Shown here piece after piece: positions 31,287 to 38,001 of a stretch of 44,225 bases of DNA. The position numbers were made by a program, and so were the translations under genes. Position 1 is the stretch's first letter. Each line of letters opens with the position of its first letter. This DNA is from a virus (taxonomy: Duplodnaviria; Heunggongvirae; Uroviricota; Caudoviricetes): IMG/VR virus record IMGVR_UViG_2744054854_000007. The stretch is one strand, 5' to 3'. Below the pieces are notes generated by a model. It was given only the letters and a program-made list of their open reading frames with translations. It was not told the DNA's origin and ran no database searches.

Positions 31287-31378
31287 GGAGGGTTGGCCGA
31301 GTGGTTGATGGCACCTCACTGATAATGAGGCGTACGGGCTATAAACCCGTACCGCGGGTTCGAACCCCGCACCCTATT
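31287..31378 (+). tRNA. tRNA-like gene, class-II architecture, Ile-type anticodon loop CUGAUAA (GAU); possibly degenerate
   Basis: Hand-folded: D-arm GCC-GAGTGGTTGAT-GGC; anticodon arm CCTCA-CTGATAA-TGAGG; 23-nt variable hairpin; T-arm GCGGG-TTCGAAC-CCCGC; acceptor has one G:A mismatch and no encoded CCA; followed by a terminator. Confidence 0.4.
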
Positions 31379-31600: not shown

Positions 31601-32078
31601 TTAGTCCTTCACAAAGATAATCCAATGGGTTTTGTCGTTCTTCCCAGTACGCTGACCAATTGCAGGTTTCACGTCAGTAAGAGCTAAAATCTGGCTAACC
31701 GGGATCTGCGTTTCGTTCCATTTGAAAATAAGCACGCCGCGCGGCCACAGCACCCGAAACGCTTCTTTGAAACCGGCGCGTAAGTCAGAGCGCCACGTTT
31801 TTTTTGTTCAGTCGCCCGTATTTTTTACCCATCCAGGCAGACTGGCCCACGCGCTCGAGGTGCGGCGGGTCAAACACCACAACCGGAAAAGAAGAATCAG
31901 CGAACGGCAGTGAACGAAAGTCTGAAATCAGGTCTGGACTGATAACCAGGCGGCGACCGTCGCACAGTTCGTGCTCTTCGGCGCGAATATCAGTGAACAC
32001 GGCGCGGGTGTCCTGCTTGTTGAACCAGAACATGCGGGAGCCGCAGCACATATCAAGAATCGTCGTGTTGTCGGTCAT
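31601..32078 (-). pseudogene. Dam-like DNA methyltransferase interrupted by a frameshift at an A8 homopolymer
   Basis: N-terminal frame MTDNTTILDMCCGSRMFWFNKQ...VVVFDPPHLE stops 4 codons after the A8 run (31798-31805); the shifted frame continues ...TWRSDLRAGFKEAFRVLWPRGVLIFKWNE... to TAA at about 31601; removing one A restores a ~159-aa ORF. Confidence 0.5.
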
Positions 32079-34842: not shown

Positions 34843-35073
34843 TCAGGCGGCTGAATGTGGATGCGGAAACAATTCAGGAAGGTCGGGACGGAATTCATGA
34901 GCTTGAATCTGTCCTTCGCTTGCCTTTACCAAAACAGGAACATGGATCGGGGAGATTTGTTTTTTCCCATTTAACCAGTCACAGACCGTGGATTGGGCCT
35001 TACCACATCGCTTCGCTAGCTCTTTCTGACTACCGGCGATTGCAATCGCTTTTTCTACAGCAGGGTTTTTCAT
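34843..35073 (-). CDS. Cro-like HTH regulator
   Basis: Internal ATG 35073; HTH GSQKELAKRCGKAQSTVCDWLNG; divergent from the CI-like gene across operator palindromes. Confidence 0.65.
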   Translation of the reverse strand: MKNPAVEKAIAIAGSQKELAKRCGKAQSTVCDWLNGKKQISPIHVPVLVKASEGQIQAHEFRPDLPELFPHPHSAA

Positions 35074-35109
35074 AATCGCTCCTTCTATCAATTTAGGTTG
35101 ATTATGTTT

Positions 35110-35169
35110 ATCGCTTTAACGAATGTCAATCGCCTATGCGATTTTTTGCTTATTAATCGCTGTGGCGAT
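35110..35169. promoter_or_regulatory. Operator region: three ATCGC-N4/5-GCGAT-type sites between cro-like and cI-like genes
   Basis: Palindromes ATCGCctatGCGAT (about 35129-35142) and ATCGCtgtgGCGAT (about 35156-35169) plus imperfect ATCGCtttaaCGAAT (about 35110-35124). Confidence 0.6.
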
Positions 35170-35202: not shown

Positions 35203-35886
35203 ATGAGTTTTTCTGAGCGATTAGATCGCGCAATGAATGAGGCGGGTTATACACAGGGCAAGCTAGCTAAGGCAGTTGGCATGGCACAGTCAAGTGTTAA
35301 CAAGCTGCTAAATGGTGCATCAAGCTCAAGAAAAACGGTCGAGATAGCTTCTGTTCTCAATGTTCGCCCTGAATGGCTTTCCACGGGATCCGGACCGATG
35401 CGTAACGATGGCCAGCTACCGCCTCCCATTACCGCGACAAAAAAAGACTCAAACATATTCAGAGTTGACGTACTTGACCTGACATTTAGCGCGGGGCCAG
35501 GTTCTTTCATGATTTCTGAGTTTGTTGAGGTTCTACACGCCATTGAGTTCACAACCGAACACGCTCGTTCACTCTTCGGAAATCGTTCTCAGGAAGACGT
35601 AAAAGTAATGACGGTCGATGGCGACAGCATGTGTCCAACTATACAGTCTGGTGACAGATTGTTTTTCGATATTTCTGTAAGAAACTTCAAGGTCGACGGT
35701 GTTTATGCGTTCGTTTTCGGACAACATTTCCATGTGAAGCGCTTGCAGATGCAGGGCGATAGGTTGGCAGTTTTGTCTGATAACTCAGCTTATGAGAAGT
35801 GGTACATTAACGAAGGTAATCAGGATCAACTCTACGTAATGGGTAAGGCATTGATTCATGAATCAATAAAGTATAACCGATTGTAA
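35203..35886 (+). CDS. CI-like repressor (HTH + S24 LexA-type autopeptidase domain)
   Basis: 227 aa; N-terminal HTH QGKLAKAVGMAQSSVNKLLNG; C-terminal GDSM Ser and downstream Lys in the S24-type arrangement. Confidence 0.85.
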   Translation: MSFSERLDRAMNEAGYTQGKLAKAVGMAQSSVNKLLNGASSSRKTVEIASVLNVRPEWLSTGSGPMRNDGQLPPPITATKKDSNIFRVDVLDLTFSAGPGSFMISEFVEVLHAIEFTTEHARSLFGNRSQEDVKVMTVDGDSMCPTIQSGDRLFFDISVRNFKVDGVYAFVFGQHFHVKRLQMQGDRLAVLSDNSAYEKWYINEGNQDQLYVMGKALIHESIKYNRL

Positions 35887-35930
35887 AACTGTACTTTTTA
35901 TCTACTTTGGCCCAGAAAAGGATCATAATT

Positions 35931-36293
35931 ATGAAATCGGAATTATTTCATAGTGAAGCAAACTCCGAGATTATCACAGCGGATGAGTTCATTGATTTCA
36001 TAAATTCATTCAAAAAACCAATAACTTGCCAAATCTGCGGGAACCAGTCATGGTCTGTAGTTGGTGCCTTTGATCTTGATGTAGAAGAAAATCAGCCAAA
36101 ACATCATGTGATCGAAACACTTAGTTATGCACAATACAAACCTGATACTGATAGTGCTGTGACATATCCTGGCGGTATGCCACTATTTCGAATCACGTGT
36201 GATCACTGCGCACATGTACTGCTTTTTTCTTATAAAAAAGCCAGGACACTGATTAATAAAAGAAAAGAAGATCAAGGAGAGGATGGGAAGTGA
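35931..36293 (+). CDS. Zn-ribbon-like small protein, cargo gene 1 downstream of cI
   Basis: ATG 35931 (track ORF begins at TTG 35907); CQICG...CDHCAH cysteine pairs; AT-rich by eye. Confidence 0.5.
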   Translation: MKSELFHSEANSEIITADEFIDFINSFKKPITCQICGNQSWSVVGAFDLDVEENQPKHHVIETLSYAQYKPDTDSAVTYPGGMPLFRITCDHCAHVLLFSYKKARTLINKRKEDQGEDGK

Positions 36294-36922
36294 TGGGCCC
36301 ATCTCTCAAAGCTGTCCCAGACTGCGGTTCTGGCATTGATAAAGATGACCTGTACCCCAATGTTCAAAACAGACTACGCGTCGATAAAGAAGAAATGTAT
36401 ACTAACTTTATCAAATCAACAGATGAAGCTAATGAAACTGATGGGGGAAATGAAATGTCATCAGTTAGCCGTGAAGAAATGCAAGCACTTCTAGCTGCCA
36501 ATAAGGCGGAGATGGAGTCCATTGCATCTTCGATTAGAGCTGAAATGGCTTTGTCACGCGAGAATATGAACGTTCAGCTGGCATCGCTCAATTCATCTAT
36601 TAGCTCTATTTCTTCTAAAATTGAAGGGAAAATGGATAGCGTTGATGGGGATGTAAAAGCCATCAATGGCAAATTCGAAGGTATACAAGGGCAAATTACA
36701 GGAATAAACACTGCGATTGGCGGTATTCAATCAGGTATTTCCACTAGGCTTGCTATTTTTGGCGTTATCATTGCGGTTGTCGTTGCATTACCTAGTCTTG
36801 TTTCTGCCTTGAAGAGTGATCCGCCCGTAGTTCAACCAGTAGCGCAGCAACCTGTTATCATCCAATTACCTCAAGAACCAACTACTCCACGAGTACTTCA
36901 CCAACAGGAAAAATCAAAGTAA
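36293..36922 (+). CDS. Coiled-coil protein with C-terminal transmembrane anchor, cargo gene 2
   Basis: ATG 36293 overlapping upstream TGA; heptad-like Ser/Ile/Glu-rich region; hydrophobic LAIFGVIIAVVVALPSLVSAL near C-terminus then Pro/Gln-rich tail. Confidence 0.5.
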   Translation: MGPSLKAVPDCGSGIDKDDLYPNVQNRLRVDKEEMYTNFIKSTDEANETDGGNEMSSVSREEMQALLAANKAEMESIASSIRAEMALSRENMNVQLASLNSSISSISSKIEGKMDSVDGDVKAINGKFEGIQGQITGINTAIGGIQSGISTRLAIFGVIIAVVVALPSLVSALKSDPPVVQPVAQQPVIIQLPQEPTTPRVLHQQEKSK

Positions 36923-36945
36923 ACCGGCATTATGCCGGTTTTCAT
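36921..36945 (+). terminator. Terminator-like hairpin (plus strand) after cargo gene 2
   Basis: AACCGGC-attat-GCCGGTT then TTTCATATT; U-tract imperfect. Confidence 0.45.
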
Positions 36946-37482
36946 ATTCCTTTTCTCACCATAGCAGTGACATCCCACAACACTCCTTTGTGAATCACAT
37001 TTCCAACCGCGCGACGCTTAGTCTCCAAGCTATCTACTATCGCATCTCGACTTATCACCACACCGTTGATTATCTACTCGACAACTGCACCGCCAATCTC
37101 GCCAGCCATGAAAGCAGCGCGATCTTCCAGCAGCTCATCACGTGACATATCCATTCCTAAACCCATATCAATATCCCCGCCTGGTGTTTTTTTGAGCATA
37201 TCACGCATCTCATACAAAAATAAATCACTTTATAAATCAAATAAAAATCGGCAAAATCACAATATTATCGTTTAAGCGATTGATAAAATAAATCGCCTTA
37301 GCTATCATCACCCCATCGAGAAACACTAAGCGCATCAAGTTCAAACGTTCCGCTGGCCTGGCGACAAGGGCAAAGCACAGAGTGAGCTTCGCGGTGGTGA
37401 ACTGCAGAGTTAAAACGCTCAACTGTGAAGATCAGCACCACGGCGCCACCAGCGAAGTTCACTCAGAAAACTGGAGAACATC

Positions 37483-37862: not shown

Positions 37863-38001
37863 CGTAAAACCCGCGCAAGGCGGGATCTACGTCCGGTGGT
37901 ACCGACCAAAGTTACACCGGAAACAACATTAAAACCAAAGTTAACCCAATGGGCGCTATCAATGGTCCGGGGATTCTAACACCCAAAAATGAGGATCTCA
38001 C

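What the first reader, a model, noticed from the sequence alone, without database searches (positions are those of the whole stretch)
35931..36945. Cargo pair immediately downstream of cI in a rexAB-like position: Zn-ribbon protein plus coiled-coil protein with C-terminal membrane anchor
Seen in sequence: two plus-strand ORFs co-directional with cI, translationally coupled (TGATG at 36291-36295), AT-rich by eye, followed by a hairpin at 36921-36945. Gene 1 (120 aa) has two Cys pairs (CQICG, CDHCAH). Gene 2 (209 aa) has a long Ser/Ile/Glu-rich heptad-like region, a C-terminal hydrophobic helix and a Pro/Gln-rich tail. Established: in lambda the genes co-transcribed with cI from the maintenance promoter (rexA, rexB) are an exclusion system, and this slot is a known hotspot for prophage-encoded defence in lysogens. 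Inference: a candidate superinfection-exclusion or abortive-infection module expressed in the lysogen, with the membrane-anchored coiled-coil protein as effector and the Zn-ribbon protein as sensor or regulator. No match to a system I can name.
Basis: partly seen in the sequence, partly recalled or inferred. Interest (0 to 1): 0.7.

Follow-up and report, generated by a model that had tools for sequence, protein, structure and literature searches.

The report
Prophage cargo pair beside the repressor
Two uncharacterised genes sit right after the repressor of an E. coli lambda-like prophage, in the slot where phage lambda keeps its rexAB exclusion genes; one is a membrane-anchored protein from a widespread family that always travels with a small, interchangeable partner, which makes it a good untested candidate for a new phage-exclusion system.

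Summary
Gene 1 (35931-36293, 120 aa) has four invariant Cys. Gene 2 (36293-36922, 209 aa) has a disordered N-terminus, a long helix, a C-terminal membrane helix and a Pro/Gln tail. The two genes overlap by one base, are AT-rich, are under purifying selection and end in a strong hairpin.

Operator repeats place the pair between cI and OL/PL. A related E. coli prophage has an empty site, so 35869-36936 is inserted cargo.

Neither protein matches any Pfam, NCBIfam, PADLOC or PDB entry. Both fall in function-unknown PHROGs.

- Gene 2 belongs to a real family: 241 representatives at 50% identity, and 133 of the 170 top hits examined share the architecture.
- A small gene always precedes it. The partner comes in at least four unrelated types.
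- The Zn-ribbon type recurs in a Cupriavidus prophage (hhalign probability 93%).
- The pair follows at least 11 different repressor types. In three lineages it lies next to the tape-measure gene.

The most likely reading is a lysogen-expressed exclusion module with a cytoplasmic specificity subunit and a tail-anchored membrane effector. It is analogous to RexAB but not homologous. The function is untested, and blocking of DNA injection is a serious rival.

The parts
34843..35091 (-). cro-like HTH gene, divergent from cI (context)
   Evidence: ORF. Annotated 'transcriptional regulator' in RefSeq. A PR-like promoter, TTGACA-17-CATAAT, lies at 35129-35101 on the minus strand.
35110..35169 (.). 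OR: operator palindromes ATCGC-N4-GCGAT (35129-35142 and 35156-35169 perfect; 35110-35123 degenerate)
   Evidence: These are the only zero-mismatch matches in the 44 kb window.
35203..35886 (+). cI-type repressor (HTH_3 plus Peptidase_S24)
   Evidence: Pfam PF00717 E 5e-17 and PF01381 E 8e-8. phrog_4 transcriptional repressor, E 1e-57.
35931..36293 (+). Gene 1: 120-aa cytoplasmic protein with a putative four-Cys Zn ribbon (CxxCG-x3-W ... TCxxC); partner or specificity subunit
   Evidence: phrog_4293 E 2.5e-33. Only 4 clusters in 5.8 billion proteins. Homologous partner in Cupriavidus: hhalign probability 92.9%, E 3.6e-7. dN/dS 0.08. AF2 pLDDT 60.6, with no significant PDB fold match.
36293..36922 (+). 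Gene 2: 209-aa tail-anchored inner-membrane protein. Variable disordered N-terminus (1-57), conserved helix starting SREE(M/L), Gly/Ile heptad or hendecad repeats, membrane helix about 153-175, and a Pro/Gln-rich periplasmic tail with a QPVIIQLPQ motif
   Evidence: phrog_5820 E 1.3e-70. Family of 241 representatives at 50% identity. 133 of the 170 top hits examined share the C-terminal membrane helix and tail. dN/dS 0.145.
36921..36941 (.). Hairpin terminator shared by gene 2 (+) and the convergent pseudogene (-); right-hand mosaic joint of the cassette
   Evidence: Homology to L006 ends at 36942. Homology to L055 and L056 starts at 36937.
36942..37148 (-). 68-codon minus-strand gene with a stop at codon 12 (pseudogene); flanks the cargo slot on the OL side
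   Evidence: Intact copies occupy the same position in L055 and L056.
37267..37308 (+). OL/PL: operators ATCGTTTAAGCGAT and ATCGCCTTAGCTAT overlapping the promoter TTGATA-17-TATCAT

Best explanation
The pair is a horizontally mobile two-gene cargo cassette (a 'moron'). It sits between the prophage repressor gene and OL/PL and is read through from the repressor's promoter in the lysogen.

My preferred mechanism is an exclusion or abortive-infection module that works like RexAB without being related to it.
- Gene 2 is made in the cytoplasm and anchored in the inner membrane by its single C-terminal helix.
- Its conserved cytoplasmic helix and Gly/Ile-rich repeats are held inactive or controlled by the small protein made with it from the overlapping upstream gene. 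Here that protein is the Zn-ribbon protein of gene 1.
- When the partner meets a signal from an infecting phage, the membrane protein self-associates through its helical repeats and disturbs the membrane. Infection stops.

**Shown:**
- gene structure, position and cargo status;
- family membership;
- obligate pairing with interchangeable partners;
- conservation of the slot.

**Inferred:**
- expression in lysogens;
- topology (N-terminus in, tail out);
- interaction between the two proteins;
- the anti-phage role;
- the membrane-damaging step.
For: **Slot**
- Operators and promoters place the pair between cI and OL/PL, with no terminator after cI.
- An empty site in E. coli O157:H16 (L056) has about 90 bp where the window has about 1070 bp. 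L055 carries different cargo there (KilA-N protein plus a hypothetical protein).
- The literature calls this cI-to-N region a mosaic hotspot that holds the abortive-infection systems RexAB and BstA and is highly transcribed in lysogens (PMC8585504).

**Module**
- In all loci where the upstream side could be read, a small gene immediately precedes the gene 2 homologue, overlapping it or within 36 nt of it.
- The partners fall into at least four BLAST-unrelated types.
- The Zn-ribbon type is paired with a gene 2 relative downstream of an S24 repressor in Cupriavidus oxalaticus as well. That locus has 62% GC, and hhalign gives probability 92.9%.

**Mobility**
- The pair follows at least 11 repressor types that are under 70% identical to one another.

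**Neighbouring cargo**
- In many loci a DUF3024 gene that matches PADLOC defence candidate PDC-S43 (E 7e-42) shares the slot.

**Membrane protein**
- It has a single strong membrane helix and long helices.
- There are weak, sub-threshold similarities to the membrane-inserting head regions of ClyA-type pore formers: MakE at E 1.8e-4 and SmhB at E 0.04.
Against: - No experiment or transcript data support any part of the functional claim.
- No homology exists to any known defence protein.
- A single membrane helix is a thin basis for a pore. The pore-former similarities are far below threshold (20.6 bits against a 360-bit cut-off) and may reflect composition only.
- The periplasmic tail carries a conserved motif (54 of 133 members). 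Some relatives sit beside tape-measure genes. Both facts fit an entry-blocking role at least as well.
- Partner type tracks the variable N-terminus of gene 2, but this may be simple linkage. The Zn-ribbon partners of E. coli and Cupriavidus go with unrelated N-termini.
Confidence: 0.4

Rival explanations
1. The pair is a superinfection-exclusion module that blocks DNA entry, working like HK97 gp15 or P22 SieA. The tail-anchored protein sits in the inner membrane. Through its membrane helix and conserved Pro/Gln tail it stops the incoming tail or tape-measure protein from opening a channel. The small partner assists or regulates it.
For: - Relatives of the pair lie next to tape-measure genes in three separate lineages: L003, L042-44 and L054. 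The tape-measure genes are confirmed by PHROGs at E <= 1e-65.
- In L042-44 the pair lies on the strand opposite the tail operon, between a chaperone-position gene and the tape-measure gene. That is the slot of the gp15 moron, which blocks genome injection (PMC3594210).
- The periplasmic tail has a recurrent QP-h-h-x-h-PQ motif.
Against: - The most conserved part of the family is cytoplasmic (the SREEL...NKAE...R-E helix). Only about 35 residues are outside the cell.
- Known entry blockers are single small membrane proteins. They have no obligate, swappable cytoplasmic partner.
- The tape-measure neighbourhood is a general cargo hotspot. Lipoproteins and other cargo lie there too.
Confidence: 0.25
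2. The pair is not an anti-phage system. It could be a toxin-antitoxin-like addiction pair, with the membrane protein as toxin and the upstream partner as antitoxin. It could also be a regulator of the lysis-lysogeny switch or of host physiology (lysogenic conversion).
For: - The small gene lies upstream and is translationally coupled to a membrane protein, which is the usual antitoxin-toxin order.
- RexA itself modulates the lambda switch (PMC11077077), so genes in this slot need not be purely defensive.
- No defence homology was found.
Against: - The partners have no DNA-binding or recognisable antitoxin domains.
- The same cassette works in two different prophage slots and behind at least 11 repressor types. 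This argues against a role tied to one particular switch.
- Toxin-antitoxin pairs in prophages often act in defence anyway.
Confidence: 0.2
3. The ORFs are chance or decaying reading frames with no function.
For: - Both are annotated only as hypothetical proteins.
- In two related loci the last 8-12 codons of gene 1 are altered (L005, L008).
Against: - dN/dS is 0.08 and 0.145.
- The Cys residues are invariant.
- The family has 241 representatives with a conserved architecture.
- Pairing is conserved across beta- and gamma-proteobacteria.
Confidence: 0.02

Closest known systems
Lambda RexA/RexB abortive-infection system
   Same: - Same slot: downstream of cI, upstream of OL/PL, co-directional with cI.
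- Two genes, one cytoplasmic protein and one inner-membrane protein.
- AT-rich cargo ending in a terminator.
   Different: - No sequence similarity was found in Pfam, PHROGs or PADLOC.
- RexB has four membrane helices; gene 2 has one, at its C-terminus.
- RexA is a 279-aa DNA-binding dimer; gene 1 is a 120-aa putative Zn-ribbon protein.
- Here the cytoplasmic partner is interchangeable between unrelated families.
BstA (BTP1 and other prophages), single-protein abortive infection downstream of cI
   Same: Same conserved placement directly after the prophage repressor, presumably sharing its promoter (PMC8585504).
   Different: BstA is one soluble DNA-binding protein with a DNA-based self-immunity element. 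There is no homology and no membrane component.
HK97 gp15 (YebO-like) moron, superinfection exclusion at the inner membrane
   Same: - Prophage-expressed small inner-membrane protein.
- Relatives of the present pair occupy the same chaperone/tape-measure slot (L042-44).
   Different: - gp15 is a single short protein with no partner and no long cytoplasmic helix.
- There is no sequence relationship.
- In the window the pair is in the immunity region, not the tail operon.
Pfam PF07798 CCDC90-like (formerly DUF1640): coiled coil plus C-terminal membrane helix
   Same: - Overall architecture.
- Distant members of the gene 2 family score 20-30 bits over the coiled-coil and membrane-helix end of that profile.
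   Different: - All scores are below the 33.5-bit gathering threshold.
- The window protein does not hit it at all at E <= 1.
- The function of the bacterial members of that family is unknown in any case.
PHROG families phrog_5820 (gene 2), phrog_4293 (gene 1) and phrog_5893 (type-B partner)
   Same: True membership: E 1e-70, 2.5e-33 and 2e-50.
   Different: All three are 'unknown function', so membership adds no mechanism.

Membership tests
RexAB (lambda) | Homology to RexA and RexB | tested here: not met
   No Rex family appears among the Pfam, PHROGs, NCBIfam or PADLOC hits for either protein.
RexAB (lambda) | Located between cI and OL/PL, co-directional with cI, with no intervening terminator | tested here: met
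   Operator and promoter mapping and terminator scan. Empty-site comparison.
RexAB (lambda) | Polytopic (four-helix) membrane channel protein plus a cytoplasmic activator | tested here: not met
   Gene 2 has a single hydrophobic segment at 153-175. Gene 1 has none.
RexAB (lambda) | Excludes phages (for example T4 rII) by loss of membrane potential | not testable with these tools
   This needs plaque assays and membrane-potential measurements.
phrog_5820 / gene 2 family (tail-anchored coiled-coil protein) | Full-length profile match; SREEL-type helix, repeats, C-terminal membrane helix, Pro/Gln tail | tested here: met
   E 1.3e-70 over residues 7-207. Alignment A1/A3 has 30 invariant columns. 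Architecture shared by 133 of the 170 top hits examined.
phrog_4293 / Zn-ribbon partner family | Profile match and four invariant Cys in two CxxC knuckles | tested here: met
   E 2.5e-33. C33, C36, C90 and C93 are invariant, including in the Cupriavidus and L053 partners. hhalign probability 92.9%. Metal binding itself is untested, and the fold search gave nothing significant.
Pfam PF04513 Baculo_PEP_C | Score at or above the gathering threshold (38 bits) | tested here: not met
   23.6 bits. This is a coiled-coil-type match only.
Pfam PF07798 CCDC90-like (DUF1640) | Score at or above the gathering threshold (33.5 bits) | tested here: not met
   No hit for the window protein. Distant relatives score 19.7-29.8 bits.
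ClyA-type alpha pore-forming toxins (MakE, SmhB) | Family-level sequence match | tested here: not met
   MakE scores 20.6 bits against a 360-bit cut-off. SmhB has E 0.04.
Known anti-phage systems in PADLOC-DB v2 | Any model match at E < 1e-3 | tested here: not met
   Searches covered the window pair and four related pairs. Only the neighbouring DUF3024 gene matches (PDC-S43).
Type II toxin-antitoxin pair | Small upstream gene translationally coupled to a downstream toxin gene | tested here: met
   One-base overlap here. Overlaps of 4-14 nt or gaps of 36 nt or less in relatives.
Type II toxin-antitoxin pair | Toxicity of the downstream product, neutralised by the upstream product | not testable with these tools
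   This needs expression experiments.
HK97 gp15 / YebO-type entry blocker | Homology to gp15 or YebO | tested here: not met
   The PHROGs and Pfam scans of gene 2 returned no family annotated as superinfection exclusion or YebO. No direct pairwise comparison with gp15 was made.

The most novel reading that the evidence does not exclude
The gene 2 family is the conserved membrane effector of a previously unrecognised, widespread and modular prophage defence system of Proteobacteria. Interchangeable small partners (Zn-ribbon, beta-rich 144-aa, small alpha/beta, small helical) set which phage is sensed. The cassette moves between the two classic cargo hotspots of temperate phages: after the repressor and beside the tape-measure gene.
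Probability: 0.35. Interest if true: 0.75.

Novelty: new variant of a known kind. Interest (0 to 1): 0.6.

Why it matters
The region between cI and PL is the best-known address for prophage-encoded exclusion (RexAB, BstA), yet most cargo found there is unannotated.

This work turns an orphan pair into a defined family that can be tested:
- a conserved tail-anchored membrane protein, with 241 representatives at 50% identity;
- an obligate small partner that comes in unrelated, swappable forms;
- two recurrent prophage slots, across beta- and gamma-proteobacteria.

If the pair is a defence system, it would be absent from current defence catalogues. It would be present in about 1% of complete E. 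coli genomes (56 of 5426 carry the type-A or type-B cassette). It would also offer a simple model of how sensors are exchanged on a fixed membrane effector.

If it blocks DNA entry instead, it would be a new tool for studying how tape-measure proteins cross the inner membrane.

Tried and rejected
1. **Known families.** Pfam, NCBIfam and PADLOC gave only sub-threshold coiled-coil hits: Baculo_PEP_C, DUF1664, MakE, PbeC. These were rejected as membership.
2. **Solved structures.** Profile searches with gene 1, gene 2 and type-B partner alignments found nothing significant.
3. **Structure prediction.**
   - Both AlphaFold2 models have low confidence (pLDDT 60.6 and 58.3).
   - Foldseek of the gene 1 model against PDB gave a best E of 0.86. 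The top hits were Zn-ribbon proteins such as Rpb9 and ribosomal proteins, which is not significant.
4. **Are the Zn-ribbon and small alpha/beta partners related?** hhalign gave probability 0.4%, so this was rejected.
5. **Phage database.**
   - The window locus has no nucleotide match.
   - Gene 1 has no tblastn match.
   - Gene 2 matches only HK542 and HK244.
6. **Species-representative genomes.** The scan gave only two loci, one of them a weak Lachnospiraceae match that was not pursued.
7. **Literature.**
   - Searches on HK542/HK244, rexAB-slot defence, coiled-coil or tail-anchored defence proteins, and DUF1640 found nothing on this family.
   - The DefensePredictor supplements contain neither the accessions nor diagnostic peptides.
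   - Brenes & Laub 2025 is not held and could not be checked.
8. **RNA elements.** Rfam found no RNA family in the cassette.
9. **Does the N-terminus of gene 2 bind the partner?** Co-variation is perfect among the viral loci. However, Zn-ribbon partners in E. coli and Cupriavidus go with unrelated N-termini. I therefore treat the co-variation as linkage, not proof of contact.

Full report
**Where the window comes from.** The 2.2 kb around the finding is 100% identical to a lambdoid prophage in five of 5426 complete E. coli genomes, for example NZ_AP021894. On one side lie cro-like, YdaT-like, replication, Q, lysis and head genes on the minus strand. On the other side lie ydaE, recE, recT and an integrase.

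- The repressor gene is at 35203-35886 (HTH_3 plus Peptidase_S24).
- Gene 1 starts 44 nt later at 35931, behind an AAGGA ribosome-binding site. It ends at 36293.
- Gene 2 starts with the ATG at 36293, sharing one base with the TGA of gene 1, and ends at 36922.
- GC is 38% for gene 1 and 42% for gene 2, against 51% for the window.
- A 9-bp GC-rich hairpin at 36921-36941 folds far better than shuffled sequence (z = -4.4).
- Gene 1 has CxxC at 33-36 and 90-93.
- Gene 2 has one strongly hydrophobic segment at 153-175 and no signal peptide. Residues 58-152 show an amphipathic 3.6-residue periodicity. The last 35 residues are rich in Pro and Gln.
- AlphaFold2 predicts a disordered N-terminus, a helix at 60-120, a membrane helix at 149-173 and a disordered tail. 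Overall confidence is low.
- Against a 79%-identical copy of the cassette, dN/dS is 0.08 for gene 1 and 0.145 for gene 2, so both are real genes.

**The slot.**
- The only perfect ATCGC-N4-GCGAT palindromes in the window lie between cro and cI.
- Two one-mismatch copies overlap a good promoter (TTGATA-17-TATCAT, 37280-37308) that reads into the recombination genes. These are OR and OL/PL, and the pair lies between cI and OL/PL, exactly as rexAB does in lambda.
- No terminator-like site lies between cI and gene 1.
- A related E. coli prophage (L056) matches the window up to 35868 and again from 36937, with only about 90 bp and its own hairpin in between. So 35869-36936 is inserted cargo.
- Another relative (L055) carries a KilA-N gene and a hypothetical gene in the same place.
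- The right-hand joint falls at the hairpin in three independent comparisons.
- A minus-strand 68-codon gene lies between the cargo and OL. It is intact in those relatives but carries a stop at codon 12 here.

**What the proteins are.** Neither protein reaches the threshold of any Pfam, NCBIfam or PADLOC model, and neither matches a solved structure. Both belong to PHROG families of unknown function: phrog_4293 (E 2.5e-33) and phrog_5820 (E 1.3e-70).

*Gene 2 family.*
- The word-indexed search found 31 clusters, all from Enterobacterales where a source named the organism.
- An exhaustive profile search of 1.84 billion representatives found 241 at E <= 1e-3 and 102 at E <= 1e-10.
- Of the 170 top hits examined, 133 have a membrane helix at about three-quarters of their length, followed by a Pro/Gln-rich tail of about 35 residues. 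The tail often carries a QP-h-h-x-h-PQ motif.
- The most conserved part is cytoplasmic: a helix beginning SREEL and continuing through NKAE and R-E. Heptad or 11-residue Gly/Ile(Asp) repeats of variable number follow it.
- The first 40-115 residues are variable.
- Distant members give sub-threshold hits to CCDC90-like/DUF1640, which has the same coiled-coil-plus-anchor layout.

*Gene 1 family.*
- It is tiny in the indexed search, with 4 clusters.
- The gene immediately upstream of the gene 2 relative in a Cupriavidus oxalaticus prophage is a homologue (hhalign probability 92.9%, E 3.6e-7). A second high-GC locus has a weaker one (probability 41.5%, E 2.7e-4). All share CxxCG-x3-W ... TCxxC.

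**The pair is a module with a fixed part and a swappable part.**
- I read 43 viral contigs, HK542/HK244 and seven further loci. Wherever the upstream side could be read, a small gene directly precedes the gene 2 relative, overlapping it or within 36 nt.
- The partners fall into at least four groups that BLAST and hhalign do not connect:
  - the Zn-ribbon type;
  - a 144-aa beta-rich type (phrog_5893, as in HK542);
  - a small 85-100-aa type;
  - an 84-aa helical type.
- Partner type tracks the variable N-terminus of the membrane protein. Nucleotide homology between the window and the HK542 cassette begins only inside gene 2, at 36492. The recombination unit is therefore partner plus N-terminus. 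Zn-ribbon partners in E. coli and Cupriavidus accompany unrelated N-termini, so I do not claim that this shows contact.

**Where the module lives.**
- Most loci have it directly after a repressor. At least 11 repressor types under 70% identical to one another are involved, including lambda-type cI, several other S24 repressors and short HTH repressors.
- In many loci a DUF3024 gene that matches PADLOC candidate PDC-S43 lies between the repressor and the pair.
- In three lineages the pair is next to a tape-measure gene instead (L003, L042-44, L054). In L042-44 it lies on the opposite strand, between a chaperone-position gene and the tape-measure gene. That is the slot of the HK97 gp15 moron, which blocks genome injection (PMC3594210).
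- The cI-to-N region is a known mosaic hotspot that holds RexAB and BstA and is strongly transcribed in lysogens (PMC8585504).
- Prevalence in complete E. coli genomes is 5 of 5426 for this cassette and 51 of 5426 for the HK542-type cassette. All copies are annotated hypothetical.

**Interpretation.** The firm result is a conserved, mobile two-gene cargo module in lysogen-expressed slots.
- *Preferred reading (0.4):* a RexAB-like logic, in which a small cytoplasmic specificity subunit controls a tail-anchored membrane effector that stops infection at the membrane. Three things support this: the main conservation is cytoplasmic, the partner is obligate and exchangeable, and the slot is the rex/bstA slot.
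- *Main rival (0.25):* an entry block at the inner membrane. The tape-measure neighbourhoods and the conserved periplasmic tail suggest it.
- *Minority reading (0.2):* an addiction or regulatory role.

None of these can be settled without experiments.

**Comparison with known systems.** The pair works like RexAB at the level of position and parts list, but it fails every homology and membrane-topology test for membership. It is a true member only of function-unknown PHROGs. I found no description of it in the literature I could search.

**Verdict.**
- Novelty: a new variant of a known kind of prophage cargo.
- Interest: 0.6.

Noticed in passing
window 36942-37148 (-): A 68-codon gene convergent with gene 2 has a stop at codon 12, and RefSeq also marks it as a pseudogene. 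Intact homologues occupy the same place, between the repressor or cargo and OL/PL, in two related E. coli prophages (L055 4129-4335, L056 4459-4665). Its function is unknown.
   Followed up: partly
window 37864-37960 (-): Sub-threshold Rfam match to the Hfq-binding sRNA isrB (28.6 bits against a gathering score of 35, E 0.022). It lies between ydaE and recE.
   Followed up: no
L009 3996-4337 (and most type-B loci L010-L020, L025): A 113-aa DUF3024 gene lies between the repressor and the pair. It matches the PADLOC defence candidate PDC-S43 (E 7e-42), so the same slot stacks several cargo genes.
   Followed up: partly
L042 4471-5474; L003 4358-5438; L054 5550-6651: Relatives of the pair sit beside tape-measure genes. 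In L042-44 they are on the opposite strand, between a chaperone-position gene and the tape-measure gene, which is the HK97 gp15 moron slot. Lipoprotein or secreted-protein cargo lies next to them.
   Followed up: yes
L052 7874-11582 (Cupriavidus oxalaticus prophage): A gene set resembling a diversity-generating retroelement lies a few genes downstream of the immunity region: three Lcl_C-domain genes, bAvd and a reverse transcriptase.
   Followed up: no
L056 5485-6600; L048 689-1405: Other cargo in related prophages: a RelA/SpoT-domain gene in the early-left operon of the E. coli O157:H16 prophage, and a HigB-like toxin/HTH pair in the Kosakonia prophage.
   Followed up: no
window 31287-31378 (+) and 31601-32078 (-): RefSeq annotates a tRNA-Ile and a frameshifted SAM-dependent methyltransferase pseudogene inside the prophage, between the replication genes and the Q region. 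Coordinates were converted from L001.
   Followed up: no
L005 4634-5041; L008 4635-4973: In two of the four viral contigs with the Zn-ribbon cassette, gene 1 is altered only at its C-terminus, after about residue 108-112, by a frameshift or early stop. The stop/start overlap with gene 2 is lost, while gene 2 stays intact.
   Followed up: partly
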